A DNA stretch of 64,000 nt from an uncultured Candidatus Saccharibacteria bacterium (GTDB lineage: Bacteria > Patescibacteriota > Minisyncoccia > Phycocordibacterales > SBAW01): the NCBI GenBank assembly GCA_964420015.1, contig CAYQPO010000001.1, positions 87,048 through 151,047 on the forward strand, in the 5' to 3' direction. The stretch's first letter is position 1. The number at the start of each line of letters is the position of its first letter. The translations under genes and the position numbers were made by a program. Below the pieces are notes generated by a model. The model had not been told where the DNA came from. It worked only from the letters and a program-made list of their open reading frames with translations, and ran no database searches. Of the stretch, positions 1,287-18,823 are shown piece after piece.

Positions 1287-2378
1287 TCATCCTACTAAGC
1301 GGGCGATGTCGTGGGCGGTCACAAAGACCATCAGTACAATAAGGAGCGCCAAGCCCGCAAGCGAGAGCATATTGACCAACCGCACCGAAACTGGTCGACG
1401 CAATAAGCCTTCGATGCCGATGATCAGCAGTCGACCGCCATCGAGCCCAGGAATCGGCAAGATGTTGATGACTGCCAAGTTGATCGAGATCAGTGCTACC
1501 AAAAACGCCCCTTCAGAAAAGCCTTGTTTGACCGCCGACGCCCCTACCGAAGCAATCCCCACCGGCCCAGAGACCCCGCCAAGCCCGTGGCCTTGCACCA
1601 AGCCGCCCAAAAATACACCCAGACCCTGCACGGTGCCCACAACTAAGTCTTTTGCGGTGGCCGCTCCCTCTAGCAGCGCAAGGTGGATTGGTAATTTCAA
1701 AATACCTACATCGCCGAGTTCAACCCCTATTGCCTTACGCCCGTCGACCAACCCCTCGACTCCTTTGGCAAGAAAAGTTTTTTCATCCCCGTTTCGCAAG
1801 ACGGTGATGATCACGCTCTCGTCTTGATGCGCTGTAATAAAATTACGCACCACGTCTGCCTGTCGACTGTTGTTAAGAGTGCGCACATCGAGTTGTGCAT
1901 CTGCCGTTTGGAGCTTTTCCACCACATCACCGGGGGCGAAGCCCGCCGCCTCGGCGGGCGAGCCGGGCAACACACCCACGATTGTGGGGCGGGCATTGGT
2001 CACCGGGCCAAGGCCCTGATAGTCGGCCGAAGTGGGCACGCCGACCATATAGGCCGCGCTCAAAATGAGCCAGCCCACGAGGAGGTTCACCACCACTCCG
2101 GCAGCAATCACCGCAGCTTGAGTCCAACGACTCTTTTGGCTCATGCTTCTTGGGCCGGCCTCTACAGCATCTTCGCCAAAGATTTTTACATAGCCGCCTA
2201 CAAGCAGCAGGTTAAACGAGTAGAGGGTCTCCCCTACCCGCACACTAAGGAGCCTCGGCGGAAATCCGATCGAAAATTCATCAACCCGTATACCGGCGAG
2301 CTTGGCCGCAACAAAGTGCCCCAACTCGTGTACGAGTATCAAGGCAATCAAGCAAACAATAAAAATCAGCAGCGACAT
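1287..2378 (-). CDS. rseP: RIP site-2 zinc metalloprotease (M50) with PDZ domain
   Basis: HELGH zinc motif near the N-terminus. Multi-TM with a PDZ-like middle region. C-terminal LDGG motif. Confidence 0.85.
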   Translation of the reverse strand: MSLLIFIVCLIALILVHELGHFVAAKLAGIRVDEFSIGFPPRLLSVRVGETLYSFNLLLVGGYVKIFGEDAVEAGPRSMSQKSRWTQAAVIAAGVVVNLLVGWLILSAAYMVGVPTSADYQGLGPVTNARPTIVGVLPGSPAEAAGFAPGDVVEKLQTADAQLDVRTLNNSRQADVVRNFITAHQDESVIITVLRNGDEKTFLAKGVEGLVDGRKAIGVELGDVGILKLPIHLALLEGAATAKDLVVGTVQGLGVFLGGLVQGHGLGGVSGPVGIASVGASAVKQGFSEGAFLVALISINLAVINILPIPGLDGGRLLIIGIEGLLRRPVSVRLVNMLSLAGLALLIVLMVFVTAHDIARLVG

Positions 2379-2929
2379 TAGCTTGAGATTTCACGCTCTT
2401 TACGCTCAAGCATCGCCTCGAAATTTTTGTTAGTGGCGTCGACGCGCTTTTGCATCTCGTCTTTGGCACGAAACTTGTCGTCCTCGGTCATCTTTTTATC
2501 CTTTTCTTGTTTTTGGATATCACTCCACACCTCATCACGCGCACCGCGCAGTGCCGTACGCACCTCCTCCATCCGCTCTTTGGCAATTCTGAGCAATTTT
2601 TGTCGCGTCTCGCCGGTTAACTCAGGAAAGATGACCCGGACCCCGCCCTCGCCCGCCGAGACCGACACCCCAAGATTAGCCACCGTAATCGCCTTCTCAA
2701 TTTCTTTAGCCATCGCAGCGTCCCACGGAGCGATCTTGATAGAGCGCGTGTCCTCGACCGCTACGGTAGCCACTTGGTTGACTGGTACGCGGGTGCCATA
2801 GCTCTCGACCATTATCCCGTCTAAAATCGCCGGCGCGGCTCTGCCGGTGCGGATCGCACCCATCTCTTTTTGTGCACGCTCCTCGAGCTCCTTCAACCGC
2901 TTCTCAAACGGCTTAAAATCATATGCCAT
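2378..2929 (-). CDS. frr: ribosome recycling factor
   Basis: ~184 aa, charged coiled-coil, RRF-like sequence (…VESYGTRVPVNQVATV…IFPELTGETRQKL…). Start taken at MAYDFKPF. Confidence 0.8.
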   Translation of the reverse strand: MAYDFKPFEKRLKELEERAQKEMGAIRTGRAAPAILDGIMVESYGTRVPVNQVATVAVEDTRSIKIAPWDAAMAKEIEKAITVANLGVSVSAGEGGVRVIFPELTGETRQKLLRIAKERMEEVRTALRGARDEVWSDIQKQEKDKKMTEDDKFRAKDEMQKRVDATNKNFEAMLERKEREISS

Positions 2930-2975
2930 AGGTACAAAACAGTATACCAAACCTCATCCTTGCCGCTGGATTTTG

Positions 2976-3638
2976 CTATACCCGAAATTTTTTGGCGGCT
3001 TTGGGATAAATTTTAACCAGCGGATCTTTGGTCGTGTCGTATATGCGCGCGGGGGCCAGGTAGCGGCCGTAGTGGATCACCCGGTGGGTAAAGGTGCCCC
3101 ACTCACGCTCGGGCAGAAGCTCCATTAAATCTTTTTCGATCCTGACTGGATCTTTAAAATCAGAAAGGTCATACCGCTGCACAAACCTAATCACGTGTGT
3201 ATCAACCGTGATGCCGGCAGTAATACCATAGGCCTCTTTGAGCACCACGGTGGCGGTTTTGCGCGCAACGCCAGGCAGCTTCAGCATCTCCTCGATTGTT
3301 TTAGGCACCTTGCCGCCGAACTCATTTTCAACCATCTTTGCAGCAGCCAAAATGTTTTTGGTTTTGTTTTGATAAAAGCCCGAAGACTTTATGTCTTCCG
3401 CAAACTCTGCTGGGTTGGCGTGCACGTAGTCGTTGAGTGTTTTGTATTTTTTAAACAATTTCTCGGTAATTTTGTTGACCATTTTGTCGGTACACTGAGC
3501 CGAGAGCTGTACCGCGACCATCAGTTGCCACGGTGTTTTGTAGTTGAGCTCAATTTCGGCTCTTGGAAAAAGCTTTTTGAGCGCACGGTCGAGCTTTTGG
3601 ATTCGCCCTTTGCGCTCTCCTAGTTTTTTGGGCGTCAT
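2976..3638 (-). CDS. nth: endonuclease III-like HhH-GPD DNA glycosylase
   Basis: HhH-GPD signature (…LKLPGVARKTATVVL…VDTHVIRF…). No obvious 4Fe-4S cysteine cluster. Confidence 0.65.
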   Translation of the reverse strand: MTPKKLGERKGRIQKLDRALKKLFPRAEIELNYKTPWQLMVAVQLSAQCTDKMVNKITEKLFKKYKTLNDYVHANPAEFAEDIKSSGFYQNKTKNILAAAKMVENEFGGKVPKTIEEMLKLPGVARKTATVVLKEAYGITAGITVDTHVIRFVQRYDLSDFKDPVRIEKDLMELLPEREWGTFTHRVIHYGRYLAPARIYDTTKDPLVKIYPKAAKKFRV

Positions 3639-4234
3639 GCGGTTGGGAGCGAAAGGGCCAAATGCTCGAGCAACAGCTTAATGCTCGGAGAGCGGTCGGC
3701 TAGATAACCGCGCACCATGGCTAGGTCTTCAAGTGCTTGGGTGTTTTTCTTGACATTGGTGGCTAGGGCAGCCTCCAAGCCGTTGACCAAATCGAGCGTG
3801 CGTTCACGAAGAGCTTCCTCGTCTTTTATGAACTTTGTAATGAAGTCACTTCGTTGCTTTTGGTTTAATTTTAAAAATTGGAAGCTTTTTTCGGATTTCG
3901 GATTTCGGATGTCGGGTTTTTCATACGGCAACATCCGCGACTTGAGCGTCGGCAGCAATGCCCCATGGGGCACCAACACCACAAAGGTCGTCCCCGCCTG
4001 CGGCTCTTCGAACAATTTCAACAATGCTTGTTGCGCCTCAGTAGTAATAGAAGACGCCCCAATAAAAAACAAAGCCTCATTAAAATTTTTGAGCCCCGCG
4101 AGCGCGATGAGCGCTCGCGCCTCGTCTATCCCAAAGCGTTCATGGCGCTCGGCCACAAACGGCTTGAGTGCAGCCTTAAGCGCGTCAAATTCGCCCAAAC
4201 TCCCCTCGTAATAATACGTATGATGCGTGAGCAT
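3635..4234 (-). CDS. holB: DNA polymerase III delta'-like clamp-loader subunit (short form)
   Basis: LLKLFEEP…TTFVVLV…LPTLKSRM resembles the delta'/gamma-tau 'LLKTLEEPP…TIxSRC' region. Confidence 0.5.
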   Translation of the reverse strand: MLTHHTYYYEGSLGEFDALKAALKPFVAERHERFGIDEARALIALAGLKNFNEALFFIGASSITTEAQQALLKLFEEPQAGTTFVVLVPHGALLPTLKSRMLPYEKPDIRNPKSEKSFQFLKLNQKQRSDFITKFIKDEEALRERTLDLVNGLEAALATNVKKNTQALEDLAMVRGYLADRSPSIKLLLEHLALSLPTA

Positions 4235-8240: not shown

Positions 8241-8312
8241 TCCTCGGTAGCTCAATGGTAGAGCAGCTCCCTGTTAAGGAGTTGGTTGTAGGTTCGAGTC
8301 CTACCCGAGGAG
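8241..8312 (+). tRNA. tRNA-Asn (anticodon GTT)
   Basis: 72-nt cloverleaf. Acceptor TCCTCGG/CCGAGGA. D-stem GCTC/GAGC. Anticodon loop CTGTTAA. T-loop TTCGAGT. No encoded CCA. Confidence 0.85.
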
Positions 8313-10004
8313 CAGAGTTGGACGAACGGAGGCGAAAACCTCCGTTTCGTCTTTATCCGCCTCACATTTTTCAGGTTCGAACGCAGGGTTTTCTGACTTT
8401 GCCGTAAGTAGGCCGTTGATTATGGCGGAATATAAACTTGCGTGGCGAATACTAGCTTTTCTGTCCTTTATCGTTAGGTTCGAACCGGTCTCGATCAAGG
8501 CCTCTCTTTTGGCGACAAAGTCATCGCTCAAAAATACTTTTTCAATTCCGACGGCTAGACTAAAAGCTTTCTGCGCTTTGGCGATTCTGGTTAAGTCTAC
8601 CCGGTCGTAAGCGGCTAATTCCATCTCGAGTATGTCGATCTCTGCTTTGAACACTGTTCTCGCGTTTAGCATGTCCTGGTCCGTCAGCAATCCTCTCGCA
8701 CGCATCAGGGTGAGTTCCCGATCCTCACCGCGCTTCTTTTCGAGAGTCTTGGTCAATGATGCCTTTCTTTCAAATTCGTCCTTCCTTTCAGTAGTCACCA
8801 GACTGTCTAGATTTTTTATGCACCAATCAGCAAGACTTTGCGAGATGGAGAGATTTTTCTTGAAGTGATCAGCCAAATACTTATCAATGTGTTTTTCGTC
8901 CAGCGCACCTTCCTTGCAGTCAGGATGTTGTTTCTTTGTACAATGGTAGAACGCATAATGGAGGTACTTTGGATTCTCCATTCGATCAATACGTACACCG
9001 CACCCCGGACAGGTTGTCTTTCCAGGATAGGAGAATTTCTTTTTACATGTAGGACAGATTAACTGGTACTTGGGATCGGCGGTGATAGTGCCGCCACAAC
9101 CTCCACACTCTGAAACAATTTTGTATGGGAACAAATCTTTATTTAATGATGGTCGAGGACGTCCACGTTTACCGAGTATTTTTTGATTTTCCCAGTATTG
9201 TTCCTCTGTGATCATTCTCGGTATTTCTTTGTTGAGCTCGTGTCTTCTACCGTCTTTGGTGACAAAAAAGCCGGCATATACAGGGTTTCGAAGCAATGTG
9301 TCTATTACGTATGAAATAACCAGCTTCTTTCCACCCTGTTTTTTATGAAGCACCGTTCGGATGCCCATCTCATCATTCGCAGTCCTCATTATTTGTCGTG
9401 CAGAATACTTTCGACTGTTAAACATCAAGAGAAGTTGTTTTATGAGACCGTAACGGTTCTTATCGACTAACCAGCCGCGGTCTCCGGGTTCTTTCGACAT
9501 ATCGTTTAGAAAACCTATCGGAGCGACACCATTGGGATAACCTTTTTCTTGCTCACGTGTTCGTAAGCCTCGTTTTGTATCAACGCTCAAGTCCCGAAGG
9601 TACTGGTTAGCAATACCGAGTTCGACTGCCATGATGAGCACATTGTCGCTAGGATGATAGCTGCGGTCGAATGTTTGAATATGTTTAATTACACCTTGTT
9701 GAAGCATCCAGCTAACAGTGCCACCATCGATTGGATTGCGTGATAATCGATTGAGTTTCCATGAGATGATGCCTTCCGCCTCCCCTCGACTTATTCTCTC
9801 GACCATCTGCGTGAACAATGGTCTGCCAGGTGCCTTTGCGGATTTTGCTTCTTCAAACTTACCAACGACCTCTAGTCCGAGACGAGAAGCAAGCGCTTCT
9901 AGTTCGCGGATTTGATCAGGTAAAGACTGGACTTGTTTATCCTCAGTGTCCGTCGACTTTCGAACATACATGAAGTATTTTATTTTTTGATTTTCATTTT
10001 TCAT
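8301..10004 (-). CDS. large serine recombinase (resolvase/invertase-type integrase with Zn-ribbon and coiled-coil)
   Basis: N-terminal YVRKSTDTEDKQVQSLPDQ catalytic Ser region. ~568 aa with CxxC…CxxC ribbons (CGGCGGT, CPTCKKK, CPGCG). Start taken at MKNENQ. The 3' end overlaps tRNA-Asn. Confidence 0.8.
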   Translation of the reverse strand: MKNENQKIKYFMYVRKSTDTEDKQVQSLPDQIRELEALASRLGLEVVGKFEEAKSAKAPGRPLFTQMVERISRGEAEGIISWKLNRLSRNPIDGGTVSWMLQQGVIKHIQTFDRSYHPSDNVLIMAVELGIANQYLRDLSVDTKRGLRTREQEKGYPNGVAPIGFLNDMSKEPGDRGWLVDKNRYGLIKQLLLMFNSRKYSARQIMRTANDEMGIRTVLHKKQGGKKLVISYVIDTLLRNPVYAGFFVTKDGRRHELNKEIPRMITEEQYWENQKILGKRGRPRPSLNKDLFPYKIVSECGGCGGTITADPKYQLICPTCKKKFSYPGKTTCPGCGVRIDRMENPKYLHYAFYHCTKKQHPDCKEGALDEKHIDKYLADHFKKNLSISQSLADWCIKNLDSLVTTERKDEFERKASLTKTLEKKRGEDRELTLMRARGLLTDQDMLNARTVFKAEIDILEMELAAYDRVDLTRIAKAQKAFSLAVGIEKVFLSDDFVAKREALIETGSNLTIKDRKASIRHASLYSAIINGLLTAKSENPAFEPEKCEADKDETEVFASVRPTLLLG

Positions 10005-10451
10005 AAAACAAAAGTGGAGCAACAACGTAGTTCTTAATCGCCAGACCAAGAATGTTGTTGCCCCGCTTTTATCCTCAAAGCCAGAGTTTGAGCGTCTTGG
10101 TCTGGCACTATCACTATGGTCCACACATACACGAAAGCAACTGCTGATACTTGGCCCGTGTGTCAGACCCCCCCTTACCCCCACGGCTTTTTGCCTTAGA
10201 GGATCGCCGTGCCCTTATCCCGTTTTCTCTCGGAGGGCGACTTGGTTTCAGTTATCCTGCCGGTTAGCGCAAGCGCCCCCGGTGGTGAACATGACTGCGT
10301 TAGAAACCTCTCGCTACACCGCAATCAGTGGTTGGCTTTCTGCCGATACTCGGCCATCCCTGTACCGTGGGATCACGGAGCCAGCCCTATGCCTGTTTTG
10401 TTTTTACAAGCCCCGCATAGGGTCTCACCCCCAGGGCTTGAAGAGGCGCGA

Positions 10452-10661: not shown

Positions 10662-11224
10662 GAGAAGCCCTCTCTTTTCCTGACGGGTTCCAGACGCTAC
10701 AAGTAGCGACCCGCCAAGAAAGCAAAGGGCTTCTCGGTGTGCGTCTGGAGTTACGCCATATCAAAAAGACCCTACACACGACGTGCGGGGTCTTTTTGGC
10801 AATGCCAAAAGAAGAGCCACCACGCGTACGTGACGGATCCTTCTTTTTTCATTGAGTTGCCTCAAAAGTTGCTCTAAGGAGGTTCGGTTGCGGCTTTGAT
10901 TTTTGCCGTTTACCGATGGTCTTTGATTGTAAAAGAGCGGGTAGATTCATTCTACCGGTCCGTAGAGGACCGTCAATCGGGGTGGTGTGGGTCCGCAGCA
11001 AAATGCTAAAATCTTATTGTGGGCCGGTAAGGCACACGAAAATTGAATAAAGCGCCTAAACCAGCGGCAACGCTGGCATGGCAAAAGAAGTCCGAACAGA
11101 CATAGAGAACCCGTCATGGGGGTGTCTGTTCGGCCATATCGGGAAACCGGTATGCCGGCGCAAGCCGGGACCCGTGGCGGGTTCTCTGTGTACCTCCCGG
11201 GGTTATTGGCTAAGCCAAACCTCT

Positions 11225-11623
11225 ATGAAGAATAAGAAAGCAGTCGTTGGACTCTGTATTTTTATACTGGTCTGTTTGGTGTTCGCCGTCTGGCTCTCAA
11301 TGCTTCCAACAAGCCCGAACAAACAAGCACTGCCCAGCAATTCGACAGTTGGGTTAGGCGAGCAAGGGTTCCTTGCTGCCTCCACCACGGTCGGCGTCTC
11401 AAAAGACGCCTACGACGCATACTTCAAAGCGACATCGGCAAACGACGCCGTCGGGTATTACCAGCTCAAGGAAAGTGGGCAGATTTTCGACCTCACTGTA
11501 AAAACAAAAGTGCTCGTGCTTAGCAGCTCATGGGGCTATGACGAGATCCGTTTTCTCGATGGCGTCCATGTCGGTCAGACCGCGTGGGTTGGCTATGAGA
11601 CCATTTCTCAAAATCATCTTTGA
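11225..11623 (+). CDS. hypothetical membrane-anchored protein
   Basis: MKNKKAVVGLCIFILVCLVFAVWL signal anchor, then a soluble domain. Confidence 0.45.
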   Translation: MKNKKAVVGLCIFILVCLVFAVWLSMLPTSPNKQALPSNSTVGLGEQGFLAASTTVGVSKDAYDAYFKATSANDAVGYYQLKESGQIFDLTVKTKVLVLSSSWGYDEIRFLDGVHVGQTAWVGYETISQNHL

Positions 11624-11668
11624 CCGGGATCTTTTTAGTGTGTAAGGTTATGTTAAGTTACTGTTTAT

Positions 11669-11857
11669 ATGGCTGACACGAGAAAAGCCGAAATTATTAC
11701 CCTAGCTGAAGCTTCTGCCATTTTGGGTTTGCACCCAAATACCCTTCGCAAATGGGATAACAATGGCTATTTGAAGGCTATACGGATTGGTACTCGCAAA
11801 GATCGTCGATATAGAAAGAGCGATATATTGAGATTGCTCGACCACAAGAATCACTAA
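11669..11857 (+). CDS. excisionase/AlpA-type HTH DNA-binding protein (candidate RDF or operon regulator)
   Basis: 62 aa. ITLAEASAILGLHPNTLRKW…IRIGTRKDRRYRKSDI is typical of the HTH_17 / Xis family. Sits 5 nt upstream of the giant ORF. Confidence 0.65.
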   Translation: MADTRKAEIITLAEASAILGLHPNTLRKWDNNGYLKAIRIGTRKDRRYRKSDILRLLDHKNH

Positions 11858-11861
11858 ACTC

Positions 11862-14800
11862 ATGACTACTACCCCATCAATTAAAAAAGAAAGTGGAGCC
11901 AGTGGTGTAAATGCTCCTGCAAATGGCCTTCTATTCTTCAAGGAGGTAGCGAAATACTTCATGGACTTTTTGGAGACAGACTTCCATAAGCGGAAGTTGC
12001 CTCGACGAACTATTAGATACCGTGATGGTGATAATCTCCTTGTCGGATTAAATCTTCAGAAGTATGAGACATTCAATAAATTAATATTAAAACTTATTGG
12101 AAAGAACTTTGAAAAAAACATCTTAGGTAAGCTCGAGAAAGGTGTTTACCAGACATTACTACCAAAAAATCTGCTTGACCTTATCAAACTCCAAATCGGA
12201 AAAATTGAAGGGTCGTTAATAAACCAAATTACAGAAGATATTGCTGAGGAAATAGAGAAGTCAGGTACATTGCATGCAGAAGAATACGATATTGCTCTTT
12301 CAAACTCTATTGAGGCAGCTGCAAATATTATTCGTGATGAATTGGTTGATCCGTTCATAAAAAGTATAGAGAAACCATTGCAGAATTTACACCTTGGCGA
12401 AGAGGACGACATTTTCCGAATCGAGGAAGAAATGACCTCTGTTCTAGTAAAACAACTGGAAAGTAAAATTTCAGAGATATTGAATCTCTTTATCGCCGGA
12501 GAAAACATAAATCTCCAAAAAGAATTGAAGAGCATACTAGTACTATCGGATGTGAAAGGCACGTTGGAAACCTTTTTCGAAGACTTGCATGTCGCTGACC
12601 TCTTTGCGGAAGTATTCGAGATGCAACGTAATATGAGCATTCTTGATAAGCAGGATTTTTATCTTTACTTCGGCGACATTTCTTTCAATAACATAAAATA
12701 CCCCATCTTTTACATACCAGTCAGCGTAACAAGACAGGGTGAAGCGTTGAATCTAGAGTTTGATACACAGATCTACATAAACAAAAGAGCATTGGAATAT
12801 ATCGTTCAGGAATATAACACTCTAAAAGGAACCGGGGGCAGTCTCAAGAATGTCACGGAACGAATTATTTATCTTGCCCAGCACACGGACGATTTACAGG
12901 ATATTCTTTCAGAAATACTCATTGAAATAGGAAACCTTTTCGAGATAAATAACCATGTAGACTTTTCCGTATCTGAGACTGTAACGGCAAAAGGTGCATC
13001 AGTGCGCATATCGAACTCTTGTTATCTGTGTCTCTTCGACAAATCTGACGAAGCGTTAGTAAACGACTACGAGGATATTTTACGTGAATTGAATGCTGAA
13101 GGTGGACTGCTTGCTGAGGCGTTTAATAAATTACTTGGGGATTTTTTACACAATAACCCAGAGCCAGTGAATCCGGAGGTTGAGAAGGAGTGGGATGACA
13201 CAGAGACTTCTGATCGCCTTGTCGCACAAAGCCCTATTCCCTTGAATGCCGAGCAGTTGCAGATTCTTTCGGCAATAAAGAAAGATAGATGTAAGTACAT
13301 GATCGTTGAAGGCCCACCCGGTACTGGTAAAAGCCATACCATTACAGCGATTATTTTCGACGCAATATTGAGAGACAAATCCATCCTTGTTCTCTCAGAT
13401 AAAAAAGAAGCCCTTGATGTCGTAGAGAAAAACATTACTCAAACAATAAATAAGGTCCGGTTTGATAAGAACTTTCAGAACCCTATTCTGCGTCTTGGTA
13501 AGACTGGCAATACTTACGCACAAATACTTGCAAAAGGTACTGTCGAGAGTATCAAAACTCACTATCGTGCTGTTAGAAAGGACTTCGAGACCATCGAAGA
13601 GAATATAGACAAATCCAGCAATACGCTCAAGGAGGATTTGGAGGCGGAAATTATTGCCTATGGAAGTATAAACGTTCAGGAAATTCAGGAGCTTGTACAG
13701 CTTGAAGATACACTCAAAAATGCAAAATTGGTCTTTGACATAGATGAACTACTTGAGGATGAAAATGCTGCACTTGAGCTCGCGGAGATGAGATCTTCTC
13801 TTGAAGAGTTTTCTGGACAATTCAGAGGAATACATACTGAGGGAATATTAAAATTGCTCGGTATAAAGCTTAAGAACATAAACACAATAGATGAATACGA
13901 GGGACTTCTGCGCTTCCTGACGGCAACTCAAGAAAGCGTAAAGAAGGTACAAGACACCTTTGGAACAAAAGTGGAGGCCGTACAGAAATTCACTTCATTC
14001 ACAAAGGAAAACCTTGGAGAGCTAAACAAATTTGTGAAAGAATACACAGATCTCAAAGCTTTCCTCGTCGGGTTCCTTTTTAAAAAAGAGAGGGTTGTCG
14101 AAGTCGATTTACGATTCATGCGTACCTTGAACAGTTCATATGCTACGCCGCATGAACATCTGGTCGCATTGAAAGATGCTGTTGCCATCTTTGAATTCAT
14201 TGCGGGTCAGGGGCGAGAAATAAACAAGCAGTTCGAATCCGATTTTGACTTTATTGCACTTGTTCATTACATCCTTCGAGAGGGCGAGACTGCCGAAAGC
14301 CTCAATGAAGTTCTTGCATCTGCTGAAGAGGTTAAATATTTCAAGGAGTTTTCTGAAAAGTACCCTAAAACAGTAGTGCGCTCAGAGCTTGATCTGCAAA
14401 ATCTTGTTTCTCTGAACGACTGTGCCATTCTCTCTCTTGGAGAGTCCGAGTTCGACAAACAGCTTCGCTATTTAAACCTTCGTCAAAAAATAACGAGAGA
14501 GTTCTCGAACATACCAGATTTAAACTACGCTTTAAAAAGGAAGAATATTGAAGATTTGGTGATCACTCAAGTTGCATATCTCATGGATGGAAGGCTCATT
14601 AATTTTTATGAGCATAGTAAAAGTGACGCAGAGACGCTAAGAAACGTAATTCGAAGTAAACAAAGATTCCCCCGAGACGAATTTCAAAAACTTAAAGAAG
14701 CCTTTCCCTGTATCTTGGCAGGCATTAGAGACTACGCTGAATATATTCCTCTTGAACAGGAAATGTTTGATTTGGTCATAATTGACGAAGCTTCACAGGT

Positions 14801-16445
14801 TAGTGTAGCGCAAGCATTTCCGGCCCTGTTGCGCGCAAAGAAGGTTCTTATACTAGGAGATAAAAAGCAGTTTAGCAATATAAAAGCGGCACAGGCTCGA
14901 TCAGACACGAACAGAGAGTACCTTAATACTCTTGAGCAATCCTTCAAACGAAATGTATCAAGTGAAACAACACAGCTTGTAAGACTCAGTAAATTTAATA
15001 TCAAAACTTCAATTCTCGAATTTTTTGAATTTATTAGCAATTACAACACTCAACTCGTTAAACACTTTCGTGGCTACAAAGAAATAATCTCCTATTCCAA
15101 TAAGTTCTTCTATCAAGGAAAACTGCAGGTAATGAAAATCCGAGGAAAGGCTATAGACGACGTAATAAAGTTTACGTACGTTGATGCGAAGGCAGAGGAC
15201 GAGGTGTATCCGAATGCAAATATAAAGGAAGTCGAAGCAATTATTGCTCAATTGCAATCCCTAAAAGAAGCTGGGACAGAAACTAGCGTAGGCATTATTA
15301 CTCCCCACACAAATCAGCAAAAGTTATTGGTGGAACAAATAAATAAAATGCCTGATAGAGACTACTATATCGATAATCTCCAGCTGAAAATAATGACATT
15401 CGATACGTGTCAGGGTGAAGAGAGGGACATTATTTTTTATTCGATGGTTGGCTCAAAGCATAGCGATAAACTTTGGGGTGTGTTTATAAAAGATCTCAAG
15501 GATGTCGACATTGAAGAGGACGGCCAGATCAAAGCACAGCGACTAAACGTAGGATTCAGTCGCGCCAAGGAATGCATGCATTTTATCTTGAGTAAACCTC
15601 TGGATGACTTTAATGGGTCTATTGGTGATGCCCTAAGACATTATTTCTATATATCAGAAGAAGCAAAGAAGGAACGGGGTGTCGCGGAAACAGATGCTCG
15701 ATCACAGAAAGAGCCTGAAGTACTTAATTGGTTTTACCAAACGAGCTTTTGGAAAAAGAACACTGATTCTATCGAGTTCATACCCCAATTTGAGATTGGT
15801 AAATACTTAAAACAGCTTAATCCATCGTACATTCATCCATACTACAAAGTTGACTTTCTTCTCATTTATAAAGACGCGAAGCAAAAAGAACATAAGATCA
15901 TTATTGAATATGACGGTTTTCAAGAGCATTTTGTAAACACTGACGCTGTAAATGCTTACAACTATCAGAATTATTATTCTGACGACGATGTATACCGACA
16001 AAAGGTACTTGAGAGTTATGGTTACAAATTCTTACGAATAAATCGATTCAACGTCGGGAGCAACCCTATAAAGACTTTGGATGAACGGATTGCGCGGTTG
16101 GTAAAAGACGAACCTAACGAAAACCCTTTGCTGAATAACATTCATATGACCGTTGAAGGCCTCCAGAATGGAGCTATGAAAGAATGCCCGAAATGTAAGG
16201 AGATAAGATCCTATAGTGATTTTAAAGACTCCTCGTTACTCACTGGCGTGGGCCGATTCTGCAAGACCTGCAAGAATAATCGAATTACAGTTCAAGCGGC
16301 CCTAGTGGCTGCACGTCCTGCCCCGGTTCTCACAGATACAAAATGTCCACGCTGTAGCTCCCCGATGATTTTGAGAAGTGGTCGAAGAGGAAAATTTTAT
16401 GGTTGTTCCCGCTTCCCATATTGTCGCGGTACAAGAAACCTATAA
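11862..16445 (+). CDS. giant DUF4011 - SF1B (Upf1/DNA2-like) helicase - DUF559/Vsr-like endonuclease - C-terminal Zn-ribbon protein (Hhe-like)
   Basis: DUF4011-like N-terminal segment (…DISFNNIKYPIFYIPVSV…). Walker A GPPGTGKSHT. Motif II LVIIDEASQV. Motif V/VI TFDTCQGEERD. Vsr/DUF559-like C-terminal block (…IIIEYDGFQEH…GYKFLRINRFN). Ribbons CPKC…CKTC and topoisomerase-type CPRC…GCSRFPYC. Confidence 0.75.
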   Translation: MTTTPSIKKESGASGVNAPANGLLFFKEVAKYFMDFLETDFHKRKLPRRTIRYRDGDNLLVGLNLQKYETFNKLILKLIGKNFEKNILGKLEKGVYQTLLPKNLLDLIKLQIGKIEGSLINQITEDIAEEIEKSGTLHAEEYDIALSNSIEAAANIIRDELVDPFIKSIEKPLQNLHLGEEDDIFRIEEEMTSVLVKQLESKISEILNLFIAGENINLQKELKSILVLSDVKGTLETFFEDLHVADLFAEVFEMQRNMSILDKQDFYLYFGDISFNNIKYPIFYIPVSVTRQGEALNLEFDTQIYINKRALEYIVQEYNTLKGTGGSLKNVTERIIYLAQHTDDLQDILSEILIEIGNLFEINNHVDFSVSETVTAKGASVRISNSCYLCLFDKSDEALVNDYEDILRELNAEGGLLAEAFNKLLGDFLHNNPEPVNPEVEKEWDDTETSDRLVAQSPIPLNAEQLQILSAIKKDRCKYMIVEGPPGTGKSHTITAIIFDAILRDKSILVLSDKKEALDVVEKNITQTINKVRFDKNFQNPILRLGKTGNTYAQILAKGTVESIKTHYRAVRKDFETIEENIDKSSNTLKEDLEAEIIAYGSINVQEIQELVQLEDTLKNAKLVFDIDELLEDENAALELAEMRSSLEEFSGQFRGIHTEGILKLLGIKLKNINTIDEYEGLLRFLTATQESVKKVQDTFGTKVEAVQKFTSFTKENLGELNKFVKEYTDLKAFLVGFLFKKERVVEVDLRFMRTLNSSYATPHEHLVALKDAVAIFEFIAGQGREINKQFESDFDFIALVHYILREGETAESLNEVLASAEEVKYFKEFSEKYPKTVVRSELDLQNLVSLNDCAILSLGESEFDKQLRYLNLRQKITREFSNIPDLNYALKRKNIEDLVITQVAYLMDGRLINFYEHSKSDAETLRNVIRSKQRFPRDEFQKLKEAFPCILAGIRDYAEYIPLEQEMFDLVIIDEASQVSVAQAFPALLRAKKVLILGDKKQFSNIKAAQARSDTNREYLNTLEQSFKRNVSSETTQLVRLSKFNIKTSILEFFEFISNYNTQLVKHFRGYKEIISYSNKFFYQGKLQVMKIRGKAIDDVIKFTYVDAKAEDEVYPNANIKEVEAIIAQLQSLKEAGTETSVGIITPHTNQQKLLVEQINKMPDRDYYIDNLQLKIMTFDTCQGEERDIIFYSMVGSKHSDKLWGVFIKDLKDVDIEEDGQIKAQRLNVGFSRAKECMHFILSKPLDDFNGSIGDALRHYFYISEEAKKERGVAETDARSQKEPEVLNWFYQTSFWKKNTDSIEFIPQFEIGKYLKQLNPSYIHPYYKVDFLLIYKDAKQKEHKIIIEYDGFQEHFVNTDAVNAYNYQNYYSDDDVYRQKVLESYGYKFLRINRFNVGSNPIKTLDERIARLVKDEPNENPLLNNIHMTVEGLQNGAMKECPKCKEIRSYSDFKDSSLLTGVGRFCKTCKNNRITVQAALVAARPAPVLTDTKCPRCSSPMILRSGRRGKFYGCSRFPYCRGTRNL

Positions 16446-18001
16446 TGAAATATCTAATATCAAAAACTACATTTCTTTCTTTTCTTGAATGCTACAGAGA
16501 CGTATGGCTCCGTATTCACCGTCCCGAACAGGTGGGAAAGCTTCAGATCTCCGATTTTGAGCTTCACATTCTTGAGCAAGGTAATGAGGTAGAGGCTGAA
16601 GCTCGAAAACTGTTTCCTGACGGCGTCTATATTACTTCAACAGAAGACGACGCAGTAAATGACACTGTTTGTTTGATGCGAGAAAAGACAGCAACCATTT
16701 TTCAAGCCACATTTCTTGTAGATGGCTTCATTGCTAAGAACGATATGCTTGTTTATGACAAGGTGGGTGATAAGTGGGATCTCTACGAAGTGAAGGGAAC
16801 AAACTCTTTAAAAGAAGAAGGTGCCGGCTCTAGAGACCATATTGATGACCTTGCCTTTCAATTGAGTGTATTGAGGCGGTCAAATGCAAATGTGGGTCGT
16901 TGTTTCATTATTCATCTCAACAAAGAATATGTACGTGCGGGTGATATTGATCTCAAAGCTCTGTTTGTTGTTGATGATGTTACGGATAAAATAGAAGCAC
17001 GTTTGCCTGAGATAGAAGAGAAAATGAAAGTGGCTAAAGAATATTTAACTTCAGAGAAGGAACCGCCGCGAGGTTGTGAGTGTGTTTATAAGGCACGAAA
17101 GAAACACTGTACTAGCTTCCAACTCTCAAACCCAGAGATACCCGAATATTCTGTACACGACTTATCTCGTGTAAGTCAGAAAAAACTCGACCTATTTATC
17201 GAGCGAGGCATTTTTGATCTGAACGACATACCAGATGATTTTGAGCTCACTGATAATCAAAAAAATCAGGTGATGGCGCATAAGCGACAAAAATCAATAA
17301 TTAACATTGAAAATATAAAGAAGGAACTTAATGAACTCACTTTTCCATTCTATTTTTTTGACTATGAAGCCTTTGGCCCAGCGATACCTGCTTTTAACGG
17401 ATACGGTCCTTACAAGCACATACCGTTTCAATTTTCTATTCATATTCTGCGAAGCCCCACGACCCCTTTAGAGCACGTGGAGTTTTTACACGATAGTCTC
17501 TCTGACCCATCGGAAAAAGTAGTTGAGATATTAAAAAAACACATTCCGCCCGGAGGAACGATAATTGCGTGGTACAAACATTTTGAAAAAATGGTCTGCA
17601 AGGAAATAGGAATCCGGTTACCTCAACATGCTGCGTATCTTGAAGAGTTCAACAGCAGAATTTATGATCTGATGGACATATTCCATGACCAACACTACGT
17701 ACATCCTAGTTTTAAAGGAAAGAGCTCAATCAAGAAAGTACTCCCGACCTTAGCTGCTGAATTGCGTTACGACATGCTTGCTATCCAAGAAGGAGGACAG
17801 GCCGCAGATGCTTGGTGGAAGATGGTATCGCCGAACACATCAGTGGATGAAAAGAAACAAATTGCCCATGATCTGAAGGTCTATTGTGGTCTTGATACAT
17901 ATGCCATGTACGCAATTTGGCATCACTTGCAAGAAACAATAACGGATGGAGTGGTACCGACACGTCTTCTTTATCCACCGATTCATTCAGTCAAGAAATA
18001 A
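16445..18001 (+). CDS. DUF2779-like protein with N-terminal Cas4/RecB-type PD-(D/E)XK nuclease motifs
   Basis: N-terminus MKYLISKTTFLSFLECYRDVWL resembles the DUF2779 start. D…D…EVK nuclease triad (…KNDMLVYD…LYEVKG). The ATG overlaps the stop of the giant ORF (TAATG). Confidence 0.6.
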   Translation: MKYLISKTTFLSFLECYRDVWLRIHRPEQVGKLQISDFELHILEQGNEVEAEARKLFPDGVYITSTEDDAVNDTVCLMREKTATIFQATFLVDGFIAKNDMLVYDKVGDKWDLYEVKGTNSLKEEGAGSRDHIDDLAFQLSVLRRSNANVGRCFIIHLNKEYVRAGDIDLKALFVVDDVTDKIEARLPEIEEKMKVAKEYLTSEKEPPRGCECVYKARKKHCTSFQLSNPEIPEYSVHDLSRVSQKKLDLFIERGIFDLNDIPDDFELTDNQKNQVMAHKRQKSIINIENIKKELNELTFPFYFFDYEAFGPAIPAFNGYGPYKHIPFQFSIHILRSPTTPLEHVEFLHDSLSDPSEKVVEILKKHIPPGGTIIAWYKHFEKMVCKEIGIRLPQHAAYLEEFNSRIYDLMDIFHDQHYVHPSFKGKSSIKKVLPTLAAELRYDMLAIQEGGQAADAWWKMVSPNTSVDEKKQIAHDLKVYCGLDTYAMYAIWHHLQETITDGVVPTRLLYPPIHSVKK

Positions 18002-18169
18002 AACATAGTTGCAATATCTTTACGAAGAGCTGGAATGGTTCGATGTCTCTCCCGAGCGAAAAGAATGCTAACGAGCTCCGGCGGATCATTAAAGAAACAA
18101 CTGGCGACAATGTGTCGCTACAGGAGGTCTACAAAATTTGGCACTATCTCCAGAAAATATTTCTCTGCA

Positions 18170-18823
18170 CTAGCTTGTGGAGAGGCAGGAAGCCACCTGT
18201 CCGGCCGGAACAGCCACCATTGTTCGAGACACTGCATTCAGATCACAAACTACGGAAGGCCGGAGAGACTGGCGCATAACAGGTGTTTCGTCCTCGCGTT
18301 CCTCCAGGTGGCGTTCACTCCACCTCGGATCGTTTGGATTGTTGTGTCTGTGGAGCGCGAGCGCGTCGATAATTTCCCGAAGGTGTCCTTGGCATTTTGC
18401 GCGCTCCGGTTCAGGCAGCACGTCGACTAAAAATCGCACATCGTCCACGCTGACCGTGCTCATGATTTTGTGCTGGACCATCTGCTTTTCGCTAAAGTCA
18501 TGGAAGTACTGCAGCCAGAGCTTTTGGCTGAATGGATTGCCTTTGACCGCCGAGCGGTAGATGCCCTCAATCACAGCGCTCGTTTTGCCGAAGGCCCATT
18601 CCTTGCGCAGTGTGGTCACGCGCGCCTCGAAGTCAGGGCGGCGCTTCCATCGCGCCGGCGTGTTGGCGCCTATCTTGTAAAAGTCGACGAACTGTTCCTG
18701 CGTTTCGATGCCAAGTCTCATGCGTTCGCTCGGCGGCATAGCGCTCCAGAGGATAAATTCTGTGTACACGTCGACACGGTTAGGTTCTCTATTTTCACCA
18801 TTTGTCACCATTTGTTTGTTCAT
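18170..18823 (-). CDS. hypothetical protein (possibly phage/island-related)
   Basis: 217-aa ORF with no recognised motif. Confidence 0.35.
   Translation of the reverse strand: MNKQMVTNGENREPNRVDVYTEFILWSAMPPSERMRLGIETQEQFVDFYKIGANTPARWKRRPDFEARVTTLRKEWAFGKTSAVIEGIYRSAVKGNPFSQKLWLQYFHDFSEKQMVQHKIMSTVSVDDVRFLVDVLPEPERAKCQGHLREIIDALALHRHNNPNDPRWSERHLEEREDETPVMRQSLRPSVVCDLNAVSRTMVAVPAGQVASCLSTS

What the first reader, a model, noticed from the sequence alone, without database searches (positions are those of the whole stretch)
11669..18001. Candidate defence operon: Xis-type HTH, a 1527-aa DUF4011/SF1 helicase/Vsr(DUF559)-nuclease/Zn-ribbon protein, and a DUF2779 Cas4-like nuclease
Three co-oriented genes are packed with 4-nt and overlapping (TAATG) junctions on the island. 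The giant ORF combines a DUF4011-like N-terminal region, a complete Upf1/DNA2-like SF1B helicase core (GPPGTGKSHT, DEASQ, QGEERD), a DUF559/Vsr-like PD-(D/E)XK endonuclease block ending in the characteristic GYKFLRINRF, and, unusually, two C-terminal zinc ribbons including a topoisomerase-type C4 finger (CPRC…GCSRFPYC). Helicase plus Vsr-like nuclease is the architecture of the single-gene Hhe defence system (Gao et al. 2020), although no HEPN motif was confirmed here. In this locus it is translationally coupled to a second predicted nuclease whose N-terminus matches DUF2779 and carries a D…D…EVK triad. I do not recognise that pairing as a described system. A helicase-nuclease with a second Cas4-like nuclease partner on a mobile island is a strong candidate for a new or variant anti-phage system.
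Basis: partly seen in the sequence, partly recalled or inferred. Interest (0 to 1): 0.85.

Follow-up and report, generated by a model that had tools for sequence, protein, structure and literature searches.

The report
Helicase-nuclease with swappable dual-nuclease partner
A mobile island in a Patescibacteria-type genome carries a giant helicase-nuclease related to, but distinct from, the Hhe anti-phage protein. It is translationally coupled to a two-headed (Cas4-like plus DEDDy) nuclease that also trails many unrelated defence systems elsewhere, so this is a modular variant of a known defence theme and not a dedicated new system.

Summary
The three co-oriented genes, their 4-nt gap and their TAATG overlap are real. 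They form a low-G+C block (0.35-0.45 against about 0.55) beside a large serine recombinase and a tRNA-Asn gene.

The 1527-aa protein has an Upf1/Dna2-like SF1B helicase, a Vsr/DUF559/MTES_1575-type nuclease and two C4 zinc ribbons. DUF4011 is not supported. The protein scores far below the Hhe, ProA and PDC-S37 model thresholds, so it is a separate family.

The 518-aa protein is a DUF2779 member. The Pfam domain is its C-terminal DEDDy exonuclease, and the N-terminal half is the Cas4-like Fe-S nuclease.

DUF2779 follows this helicase family in only about 5 of 65 informative loci, and the HTH gene precedes it in 4 of 66. Conversely, DUF2779 genes sit tightly downstream of several Hhe/PDC-S37-like helicases. 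They also sit downstream of Gabija-like, GmrSD, RM-like, IetA-like and MzaB-like genes.

Best reading: a stand-alone-capable helicase-nuclease defence gene plus an exchangeable accessory nuclease. This is a new variant of a known kind, untested experimentally.

In passing: LOOT RNA recurs on these serine-recombinase islands.

The parts
8241..8313 (+). tRNA-Asn(GTT), probable integration target at the left edge of the island
   Evidence: ARAGORN and Rfam tRNA at 72.7 bits. The recombinase ORF ends inside the tRNA's 3' end. L002 has the same layout of a tRNA abutting the recombinase gene.
8301..10004 (-). Large serine recombinase; the likely true start is the MKNENQ... Met near 10004 (the mechanical ORF extends to 10184)
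   Evidence: Pfam Resolvase 2e-16, Recombinase 2.8e-4 and a sub-threshold zinc ribbon. Homologous recombinases lie within 5 kb of the helicase in 16 of 71 loci.
11053..11168 (+). LOOT RNA (Rfam RF03000), a structured sRNA of unknown function on the island
   Evidence: 80.1 bits against a gathering score of 46.4, with a full-length model match. It is also present above the gathering score in 8 related loci. The window and L017 copies differ by compensatory changes.
11669..11857 (+). Small HTH_17 / MerR / excisionase-type DNA-binding protein (62 aa), a facultative first gene of the cassette
   Evidence: Pfam HTH_17 9e-11 and PADLOC mad1 4e-10. It lies 4 nt from the helicase start. It is found upstream of the helicase in only 4 of 66 loci.
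11862..13241 (+). Family-specific N-terminal domain of the giant protein (residues 1-460): a helical bundle plus an alpha/beta module, function unknown
13242..15620 (+). SF1B (Upf1/SMUBP2/Sen1/Dna2-like) helicase core with a roughly 360-residue insertion between the two RecA-like halves (residues about 461-1253)
   Evidence: AAA_11 5.5e-17 and AAA_12 8e-21. The PDB profile search hits Upf1, SMUBP-2, Sen1 and DNA2. Walker A G489-K490-S491, D975-E-A-S and Q1184...R1188 are invariant.
15765..16106 (+). Vsr/DUF559/MTES_1575-type PD-(D/E)XK endonuclease domain (residues about 1302-1415)
   Evidence: Pfam MTES_1575 6e-5 and DUF559 2e-3, both sub-threshold. hhalign to the L086 MTES_1575 domain gives probability 86%, E 5.6e-6. 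D1331, E1349, D1351 and H1356 are invariant.
16182..16445 (+). Two C4 zinc ribbons (C1442/1445/1467/1470 and the topoisomerase-I-type C1495/1498/1515/1521)
   Evidence: Zn_ribbon_Top1 7e-12. All eight Cys are invariant. The PDB profile search hits the topoisomerase I C-terminal ribbon. Some relatives replace this tail with a WYL domain.
16445..18001 (+). DUF2779 protein (518 aa): an N-terminal Cas4-like PD-(D/E)XK nuclease with a four-Cys Fe-S motif, plus a C-terminal DEDDy 3'-5' exonuclease
   Evidence: PF11074 at 135 bits over residues 303-428. D100, E115, K117, C211, C213, C222, D306, E308, D408, Y480 and D484 are invariant, and C16 is >=90% conserved. The AF2 model has pLDDT 82, and its best PDB match is Cas4 4r5q at probability 1.0, followed by MGME1, RecE, and Maelstrom/ERI2/RNase T for the C-terminal half. 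PMC3985635 and PMC13621843 describe the same architecture.

Best explanation
The cassette at 11669-18001 is a horizontally acquired, nuclease-based anti-mobile-element (most likely anti-phage) module. It is carried by a small island that appears to be integrated at a tRNA gene and that encodes a large serine recombinase, in a Kaiserbacteria-like Patescibacterium.

The main gene encodes a self-sufficient helicase-nuclease of the Hhe/PDC-S37 design but of a separate family. Proposed mechanism:
1. Its topoisomerase-type zinc ribbons bind single-stranded or damaged DNA.
2. The Upf1/Dna2-like SF1B motor translocates 5'->3'.
3. The Vsr-type endonuclease nicks or cleaves the invading DNA.
4. The translationally coupled DUF2779 protein acts as an exchangeable accessory effector. 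Its Cas4-like Fe-S nuclease and its DEDDy exonuclease digest the exposed strands from both polarities, so nicks become irreparable gaps. In trans this amounts to a Dna2/AddAB-like helicase plus Fe-S nuclease machine.
5. The small HTH protein is an optional transcriptional regulator.

Shown: domain identities, intact catalytic residues, tight gene coupling, the recurrence of helicase followed by DUF2779, and mobile/defence contexts.
Inferred: substrates, polarity, physical interaction between the proteins, and the defence phenotype itself.
For: - Domains and invariant catalytic residues.
- Foreign G+C confined to the three genes, next to tRNA-Asn and a serine recombinase.
- 76 genome loci across many bacterial phyla and several archaeal lineages, at 41-90% identity, with non-conserved neighbourhoods.
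- The neighbours are enriched in recombinases, integrases, Prim-Pol, SIR2, SoFic and several PADLOC candidate systems.
- The best PADLOC and NCBIfam hits are to defence helicases: PDC-S37, MkoA/C, Hhe and ProA.
- Hhe defence depends on its Vsr-domain residue E1731 (bioRxiv 10.1101/2022.06.16.496414).
- A TAATG overlap is found here and in L017.
- DUF2779 lies directly downstream, with gaps of -4 to +26 nt, of four different Hhe/PDC-S37-like helicase lineages. These are the window, L001, L017, L055, L061 and L079 type, plus L080, L085 and L086.
- Two other Cas4-like nuclease families occupy the same position in L065, L076 and L069.
- Helicase-linked DUF2779 genes are spread over the DUF2779 tree.
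- The analogous COG2251 Cas4-like/RNase H-like family is often fused to tandem AAA helicase domains (PMC3985635).
Against: - There is no experimental evidence for this family.
- It is not recognised as its own family in PADLOC v2, and it scores far below the Hhe and ProA equivalog cut-offs.
- Most helicase homologues have no DUF2779 partner (about 60 of 65) and no HTH gene (62 of 66), so any partnership is dispensable.
- DUF2779 also follows unrelated systems, which would equally fit an independent defence-island gene.
- Some DUF2779 clades lie in conserved chromosomal DinB/FolD contexts, and a member is quasi-essential in JCVI-syn3.0 (PMC13621843). That points to a housekeeping DNA-processing role for at least part of the family.
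- Promoter and terminator scans are uninformative.
Confidence: 0.5

Rival explanations
1. These are two independent genes that merely share a defence island. The helicase-nuclease is a single-gene system like Hhe. DUF2779 is a separate stand-alone nuclease, either a defence gene in its own right (often with a WYL regulator) or a solo-Cas4-like gene, that tends to insert at the 3' end of other defence operons without cooperating with them.
For: - The helicase is usually solitary.
- The modules are shuffled: L017 has a 90%-identical helicase but a 41%-identical DUF2779, with the breakpoint at the gene junction.
- DUF2779 follows Gabija-like, GmrSD, RM-like, IetA-like, MzaB-like and PDC-S26 genes.
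- A WYL gene is adjacent to DUF2779 in four lineages: L078, L079, Aliarcobacter and Rhodoferax.
Against: - Stop/start overlaps or gaps of 9 nt or less with the upstream gene occur in most cases (-1, -4, -4, -4, 1, 2, 2, 3, 4, 7, 9). That argues for co-translation and not chance adjacency.
- DUF2779 is consistently the downstream member, and the upstream gene is consistently a nucleic-acid-acting NTPase or nuclease.
- Three different Cas4-like families converge on the same position behind this helicase family.
Confidence: 0.3
2. The genes serve the mobile element or the host's DNA metabolism and not immunity. For example, they could act as a Dna2/AddAB-like end-resection and repair module, or help element replication or recombination, in a reduced genome that may lack canonical end-processing enzymes.
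For: - A DUF2779 member is quasi-essential in the minimal Mycoplasma genome, and the authors conclude it plays a role beyond immunity (PMC13621843).
- One Patescibacteria DUF2779 clade is syntenic with DinB and FolD.
- The Priestia plasmid relative of the helicase sits next to a Y-family 'damage repair protein' and YolD.
- The Xis-like HTH and the recombinase are element functions.
Against: - The helicase family is patchily distributed, is exchanged between bacteria and archaea at 50-70% identity, and lies in non-conserved contexts. That is not the pattern of a repair gene.
- The cassette is compositionally foreign even to its own island.
- Its nearest characterised relatives are defence proteins.
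Confidence: 0.12
3. The cassette is phage- or satellite-encoded and acts for the virus, for example in superinfection exclusion or host DNA degradation, and not as cellular immunity.
For: - One IMG/VR contig carries the helicase family (L113), and 12 IMG/VR loci carry DUF2779 relatives.
- A serine recombinase and an apparent tRNA integration site are also typical of prophages.
Against: - Only 1 helicase hit in 2.9 million IMG/VR contigs, and only weak helicase-only matches in 50,697 phage records.
- The island is about 10 kb, and no structural or replication genes were detected in it.
Confidence: 0.05

Closest known systems
Hhe (single-gene helicase + Vsr endonuclease anti-phage system; Gao et al. 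2020; NCBIfam NF042953, PADLOC PDLC02194)
   Same: One very large protein that combines an AAA_11/AAA_12 SF1 helicase with a C-terminal Vsr/DUF559-clan endonuclease. It has a defence-island or mobile context, and the nuclease acidic residues are conserved (in Hhe, E1731A abolishes defence).
   Different: - Only the C-terminal half of the helicase aligns (124 bits against the 2000-bit equivalog cut-off).
- About 27% identity to annotated Hhe on Vibrio plasmids.
- No DUF4011 hit; it has its own 460-residue N-terminal domain.
- Two extra C-terminal zinc ribbons.
- Shorter (1527 aa against about 1800-1900 aa).
- Sometimes followed by a DUF2779 nuclease.
PADLOC candidate system PDC-S37
   Same: It is the best PADLOC hit (3e-47). 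The L086 helicase, which also has DUF2779 downstream, is a strong PDC-S37 match (786 bits). The helicase plus MTES_1575 nuclease design is the same.
   Different: The window protein matches only model positions 928-1205 of 1550. PDC-S37 is defined as a single gene and is itself unvalidated. The term does not appear in the searched literature.
Dna2 / AddAB / COG2251 (TM0106-type) helicase-nucleases
   Same: An SF1 helicase working with a Cas4-like PD-(D/E)XK nuclease that carries a four-Cys Fe-S cluster. COG2251 proteins (Cas4-like plus RNase_H_2) are often fused to tandem AAA helicase domains (PMC3985635). The COG2251-type gene itself replaces DUF2779 behind this helicase in L065 and L076.
   Different: Here the Fe-S nuclease is a separate, facultative gene. 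The helicase carries its own Vsr-type nuclease. The context is a mobile or defence island, not replication or repair.
PF11074/DUF2779 family, e.g. MMSYN1_0389 of JCVI-syn3.0 (PMC13621843) and UU173 family
   Same: The same two-nuclease fusion (Cas4-like plus DEDDy), with D-E-K and DEDD-Y residues conserved.
   Different: The window protein keeps all four Fe-S cysteines, whereas MMSYN1_0389 has two. It is island-borne and translationally coupled to a helicase-nuclease, whereas the Mycoplasma gene is chromosomal and quasi-essential.
Mokosh (MkoA/MkoB, MkoC) and ProA (NCBIfam NF058533)
   Same: Related Upf1-like helicase cores (PADLOC MkoC 2e-44, MkoA 5e-39; ProA 7e-45).
   Different: The matches cover the helicase core only. 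There is no PLD nuclease. The ProA score is 153 bits against a 1500-bit cut-off.

Membership tests
Hhe | Score at or above the curated equivalog cut-off of NCBIfam NF042953 (2000 bits), with a full-length match | tested here: not met
   124.4 bits. Only residues 944-1245 match, to model positions 1257-1539 of 1797. The PADLOC Hhe hit is 88 bits over the same segment.
Hhe | N-terminal DUF4011 domain | tested here: not met
   No DUF4011 hit in the whole protein at E<=0.01, or in residues 1-459 at E<=1.
Hhe | SF1 helicase (AAA_11/AAA_12) with intact motifs | tested here: met
   AAA_11 5.5e-17 and AAA_12 8e-21. The Walker A, DEAS and Q...R motifs are invariant. The PDB profile search hits Upf1, SMUBP2 and DNA2.
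Hhe | C-terminal Vsr/DUF559-type endonuclease with catalytic acidic residues | tested here: met
   Sub-threshold in Pfam (MTES_1575 6e-5, DUF559 2e-3). hhalign gives probability 86%, E 5.6e-6 to a bona fide MTES_1575 domain. D1331, E1349, D1351 and H1356 are invariant.
Hhe | Protects against phage when expressed alone | not testable with these tools
   This needs heterologous expression and plaque assays.
PADLOC PDC-S37 | Near full-length match to the PDLC05009 model | tested here: not met
   159 bits, covering model positions 928-1205 of 1550 only. By contrast the L086 helicase scores 786 bits.
ProA (NCBIfam NF058533) | Score at or above the 1500-bit equivalog cut-off | tested here: not met
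   153.1 bits, helicase segment only.
Mokosh | MkoA-type helicase together with a PLD-family nuclease, either as MkoB or fused as in MkoC | tested here: not met
   Only the helicase core matches. No PLD domain was found in any of the three proteins.
PF11074 / DUF2779 | Pfam gathering score, and a Cas4-like plus DEDD(y) two-nuclease architecture | tested here: met
   135.1 bits against 23.3. The D100/E115/K117 triad, four Cys, and D306/E308/D408/Y480/D484 are conserved. The fold matches Cas4 4r5q and RNase H-like exonucleases. PMC3985635 and PMC13621843 describe the same architecture.
CRISPR-associated Cas4 | Located in a cas operon or next to a CRISPR array | tested here: not met
   No tandem or closely spaced direct repeats anywhere in the 64-kb window. 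PADLOC Cas models do not hit the protein at E<=0.01. The neighbours are the helicase and an unknown ORF.
Large-serine-recombinase integrative island | Resolvase + Recombinase + zinc-ribbon recombinase at the edge of a compositionally distinct segment, next to a tRNA gene | tested here: met
   Similar layouts with a recombinase, and in most cases a tRNA gene, are seen in L002, L017 and L019. The att sites and the right border were not determined: no border repeats were found and no empty site was found.
LOOT RNA (Rfam RF03000) | Score at or above Rfam's gathering threshold with a full-length model match | tested here: met
   80.1 bits against 46.4, model positions 1-121 of 121. Eight further loci score 65-100 bits.

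The most novel reading that the evidence does not exclude
DUF2779 proteins (a Cas4-like Fe-S nuclease fused to a DEDDy exonuclease) are a so far unrecognised, promiscuous accessory effector. This effector plugs in at the 3' end of many mechanistically different DNA-targeting defence systems: Hhe/PDC-S37-like helicases, Gabija-like, GmrSD, type III/IIG RM-like, IetA-like and MzaB-like. It would supply two-polarity end degradation, possibly in hosts that lack RecBCD/AddAB. The helicase family in this window would then be a new single-gene defence family distinct from Hhe. Separately, LOOT RNA would be a functional component of the serine-recombinase islands that carry these cassettes and that often lie next to tRNA genes.
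Probability: 0.3. Interest if true: 0.7.

Novelty: new variant of a known kind. Interest (0 to 1): 0.55.

Why it matters
If the reading is right, it adds a large, widely transferred helicase-nuclease family (more than 1,500 proteins, in bacteria and archaea) to the Hhe-like class of single-gene defences. It also shows how such genes travel on small serine-recombinase islands in Patescibacteria, a group whose immunity is poorly known.

The more general point is that DUF2779 is a family of unknown function, with one member quasi-essential in a minimal cell. It turns out to be a recurrent, tightly coupled downstream partner of many unrelated defence systems. That gives a concrete, testable hypothesis for its function: two-polarity degradation of DNA opened by a partner NTPase or nuclease.

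The recurrent LOOT RNA on the same islands gives a first genomic handle on an orphan RNA family.

Tried and rejected
- **Membership in Hhe, ProA, PDC-S37 or Mokosh.** Only the helicase core matches.
- **A conserved third gene after DUF2779.** None found. The genes that follow differ between loci: an unnamed 168-aa gene (L017), a zinc-ribbon protein, a 205-aa protein, a transposase-like fragment.
- **An obligate three-gene system.** The HTH gene is present in only 4 of 66 loci.
- **Island att sites.** No tRNA-derived or other border repeats were found.
- **An empty site in related Kaiserbacteria contigs.** Synteny diverges right after the amt gene, so the right border rests on G+C only.
- **A PDB sequence-profile search with the DUF2779 alignment.** Nothing significant; the fold search was needed.
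- **Promoter and terminator scans.** At chance level.
- **Exact look-up of the giant protein's contig.** Failed. Cluster look-ups gave no organism names, so the host was inferred from GlnA similarity.
- **Literature.** PDC-S37 returned nothing and the ProA searches returned nothing relevant. The held text has nothing specific on LOOT.
- **CRISPR association.** No repeat arrays in the window.

Full report
**1. What is in the sequence**

The three ORFs exist as described, all on the + strand:
- 11669-11857, 62 aa.
- 11862-16445, 1527 aa.
- 16445-18001, 518 aa. This uses the ATG that homologues use; the mechanical ORF begins at a TTG at 16403.

The first two genes are separated by 4 nt. The second and third overlap in TAATG. 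A 300-nt G+C profile shows that the foreign composition (0.35-0.45) is confined to about 11,600-18,200, which is exactly these three genes. The neighbouring segments differ:
- The serine recombinase gene to the left is intermediate (0.43-0.47).
- The 10.1-11.6 kb segment (0.51-0.56) and the right flank from about 18.2 kb (0.55-0.56) are close to the window's usual G+C of about 0.55.

The left edge of the island is a tRNA-Asn gene (8241-8313). It abuts the 3' end of a large serine recombinase gene with Resolvase and Recombinase domains and a sub-threshold zinc ribbon. The host is probably a Candidatus Kaiserbacteria-like Patescibacterium, since its GlnA is 86% identical to Kaiserbacteria entries. 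That is an inference.

**2. The giant protein**

Pfam gives AAA_11 (461-596), AAA_12 (1060-1241) and Zn_ribbon_Top1 (1493-1526). A profile of 42 family members finds Upf1, SMUBP-2, Sen1 and DNA2 in the PDB, so this is an SF1B helicase.

The nuclease assignment is weaker in Pfam: MTES_1575 at 6e-5 and DUF559 at 2e-3, both below the cut-offs. Three things support it:
- hhalign aligns residues 1302-1415 with the strongly scoring MTES_1575 domain of a related helicase, at probability 86% and E 5.6e-6.
- The alignment is motif for motif: YKVDF with YKIDL, IIEYDGFQEH with GIECDGAAYH, and RQKVLESYGYKFLRIN with RQEVLENYGWKLYRIW.
- D1331, E1349, D1351 and H1356 are invariant.

Both four-Cys ribbons are invariant.

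An exhaustive search of 1.84 billion representatives finds this N-terminal domain in 448 clusters. It is almost always at the N-terminus of 1300-1700-aa proteins. It is therefore a family-specific module.

**3. Relation to known defence proteins**

The best PADLOC hits are PDC-S37, MkoC, MkoA and Hhe. The best NCBIfam hits are ProA and Hhe. All of them cover only the C-terminal half of the helicase. The scores are far below the equivalog cut-offs: 124 against 2000 bits for Hhe and 153 against 1500 bits for ProA. Annotated Hhe genes on Vibrio plasmids are about 27% identical over a third of the protein.

The protein therefore works like Hhe on paper (helicase plus Vsr-type nuclease), but it is not a member of Hhe. 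For Hhe itself, a Vsr-domain mutation (E1731A) abolishes defence (bioRxiv 10.1101/2022.06.16.496414).

**4. Distribution and context of the helicase family**

More than 1,500 homologues were found. Full-length relatives at 58-90% identity occur in Patescibacteria, Pedobacter, Syntrophaceae and Aenigmarchaeota. A scan of species-representative genomes returned 76 loci from many bacterial phyla and from Methanoperedens and Woesearchaeota.

The neighbourhoods are not conserved. The only recurrent neighbour is a large serine recombinase, in 16 of 71 loci. Bulk scans of 122 immediate neighbours gave the following:
- Mobile-element genes: recombinases, integrases, Prim-Pol and IstB.
- Defence-type genes: SIR2, SoFic, DUF2130 and several PADLOC candidate systems.

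The family is nearly absent from viral collections, with 1 IMG/VR contig and only weak helicase-only hits in phage records. This patchy, horizontally transferred, island-borne pattern is what defence genes show.

**5. The DUF2779 protein**

PF11074 matches residues 303-428, which is the C-terminal half. In 41 homologues the conserved residues split into two sets:
- N-terminal half: D100, E115 and K117 are invariant, and there are four Cys (C211, C213 and C222 invariant, C16 at least 90% conserved). This is a Cas4/AddB-type PD-(D/E)XK nuclease with an Fe-S cluster motif.
- C-terminal half: D306, E308, D408, Y480 and D484, a DEDDy exonuclease.

The AlphaFold model (pLDDT 82) matches Cas4 4r5q best (probability 1.0), then MGME1 and RecE. 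The C-terminal half matches Maelstrom, ERI2 and RNase T.

Published work gives the same picture. Majorek et al. 2014 place DUF2779 in the 3'-5' exonuclease clade and note that it co-occurs with a Cas4-like domain (PMC3985635). A 2026 study of JCVI-syn3.0 describes the family as a Cas4-like nuclease fused to a DEDD nuclease in which tyrosine replaces the usual histidine. That study reports a quasi-essential member (PMC13621843).

**6. Is the pairing real?**

*Seen from the helicase side.* DUF2779 lies directly downstream in the window, L001, L017, L055 and L061. That is about 5 of 65 informative loci. It is about 6 kb away in L028 and L113. The HTH gene precedes the helicase in 4 of 66 loci.

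In other loci the same downstream slot, co-oriented and with a short gap, holds other genes:
- A COG2251-type Cas4-like/RNase_H_2 protein (L065, L076).
- A PDDEXK_1/Cas4 protein (L069).
- DUF2130 proteins, an AAA_13 ATPase, serine recombinases, or small unknown proteins.

L017 carries the closest helicase (90% identical protein, 79% DNA identity across the HTH and helicase genes). Its DUF2779 is only 41% identical. The DNA similarity stops about 22 nt into the DUF2779 gene, yet the TAATG overlap is preserved. The partner gene has therefore been swapped as a cassette.

*Seen from the DUF2779 side.* Every close homologue (57% identity or more) with enough upstream sequence follows a large AAA_11/AAA_12 helicase that carries an MTES_1575-type nuclease (strong in L080, L085 and L086, weak in L079). 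The gaps are 2, 7 and -4 nt, and in L079 a small WYL gene lies in between. These helicases are only about 25% identical to ours, and the one in L086 is a strong PDC-S37/Hhe match. Helicase-linked DUF2779 genes are scattered over the DUF2779 tree.

DUF2779 also follows unrelated genes:
- On plasmids: an IetA-like AAA ATPase (Rhodoferax), an MzaB-like GHKL ATPase (Planktothrix), and a PDC-S26-type PD-(D/E)XK protein (Aliarcobacter).
- In IMG/VR and metagenome contigs: GmrSD, a ResIII endonuclease plus a PIF1-like helicase, a Gabija-like AAA_15/TOPRIM plus UvrD pair, and an SNF2/PLD plus Eco57I-type methylase pair.

The gaps are mostly 9 nt or less, or overlaps. WYL regulator genes flank DUF2779 in four lineages.

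Some DUF2779 genes have no such partner. One Patescibacteria clade is syntenic with DinB and FolD.

**7. Interpretation**

The helicase-nuclease is best read as a self-sufficient, Hhe-like but distinct defence gene. DUF2779 is best read as a facultative, exchangeable nuclease module that is repeatedly wired, by translational coupling, behind DNA-acting NTPases and nucleases.

The most likely mechanism is as follows:
1. The zinc ribbons and the SF1B motor engage invading DNA.
2. The Vsr-type domain nicks or cleaves it.
3. The two DUF2779 nucleases then resect both strands. In trans this is a Dna2/AddAB-like arrangement.

Domain identities, intact catalytic residues, gene coupling and recurrence are shown. 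Substrates, polarity, physical interaction and the phenotype are inferred.

The main rival is that the two genes are independent neighbours in a defence island. A lesser rival is a role in DNA repair or element maintenance. That one gains some weight from the quasi-essential Mycoplasma homologue and from the DinB-linked clade.

**8. Novelty**

No paper in the searched library links DUF2779 to defence-gene neighbourhoods or to helicases. PADLOC v2 has no model for DUF2779 and none for this helicase family as such.

The design, a helicase with a Vsr nuclease plus a Cas4-like nuclease, is made of known parts. The locus is therefore a new variant of a known kind, not a categorically new system. 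The claim of a dedicated two- or three-gene system is not upheld.

**9. Seen in passing**

An Rfam LOOT RNA lies on the island at 11053-11168 (80 bits against a gathering score of 46). The same RNA family occurs above threshold in 8 of 10 related loci tested. It is usually within a few kb of a large serine recombinase, and a tRNA gene is detected in about half of those loci. The window and L017 copies differ by compensatory changes. LOOT may therefore be a hallmark of this type of island.

Noticed in passing
window 11053-11168 (+); also L017 11753-11871, L054 9076-9195 (-), L011 6713-6834, L019 14751-14873, L080 1793-1910, L085 3680-3800, L079 12281-12396, L002 7260-7379: LOOT RNA (Rfam RF03000, an orphan sRNA family) recurs above the gathering score on the islands that carry the helicase or DUF2779 cassettes. 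It usually lies within a few kb of a large serine recombinase, and a tRNA gene is detected in about half of the loci. The window and L017 copies differ by compensatory substitutions. Its position relative to the cassette varies: upstream in the window, downstream in L017.
   Followed up: partly
window 8241-10184: The large serine recombinase gene ends inside the 3' end of tRNA-Asn, overlapping it by about 13 nt. L002 has the same tRNA/recombinase abutment (tRNA 2244-2314, recombinase 2312-3895 on the - strand). No att repeats were found and the right border is undefined.
   Followed up: partly
window 11078-11623 (+): A mechanical 181-aa ORF overlaps the LOOT RNA at its 5' end. A later Met (MKNKKAVVGLCIFILV...) would give a small protein of about 130 aa with an N-terminal hydrophobic segment. 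The only hit is a weak OppC_N match, the G+C is host-like, and the function is unknown.
   Followed up: no
window 18170-18823 (-): A 217-aa ORF immediately right of the cassette has no Pfam hit and no homologue in any fetched locus other than copies of the same contig. It has host-like G+C (0.55). It is unclear whether it belongs to the island.
   Followed up: no
P0069, P0070, P0084; L079 7402-7998; L078 19-525: In some relatives of the helicase a WYL domain takes the place of the C-terminal Top1-type zinc ribbon. The WYL domain is either fused to the helicase or encoded as a separate small gene between the helicase and DUF2779. WYL genes also follow DUF2779 on Aliarcobacter and Rhodoferax plasmids.
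   Followed up: partly
L089-L092 and L107 (for example L091 4619-12997): One clade of unpaired DUF2779 genes sits in a conserved chromosomal block: VTT-domain protein, DinB (IMS), FolD, a 78-aa ORF, DUF2779, hemerythrin, GIY-YIG, P-type ATPase. This suggests a housekeeping or repair role for that clade.
   Followed up: partly
L126 1790-7503 and L127 1798-7503 (IMG/VR contigs): A Gabija-like pair (AAA_15/OLD-TOPRIM plus a UvrD helicase) is followed within 21-25 nt by a DUF2779 gene. L122 has GmrSD followed by DUF2779 (gap 9). L130 has an unannotatable 1581-aa protein that overlaps the DUF2779 start by 4 nt.
   Followed up: partly
L133 and L135 (glnA-anchored contigs labelled Kaiserbacteria or metagenome): The closest glnA-bearing relatives encode cytochrome oxidase subunits (COX1/COX2, cytochrome bd). 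That is unusual for Patescibacteria, so the taxonomic label of the host lineage should be treated with caution.
   Followed up: no
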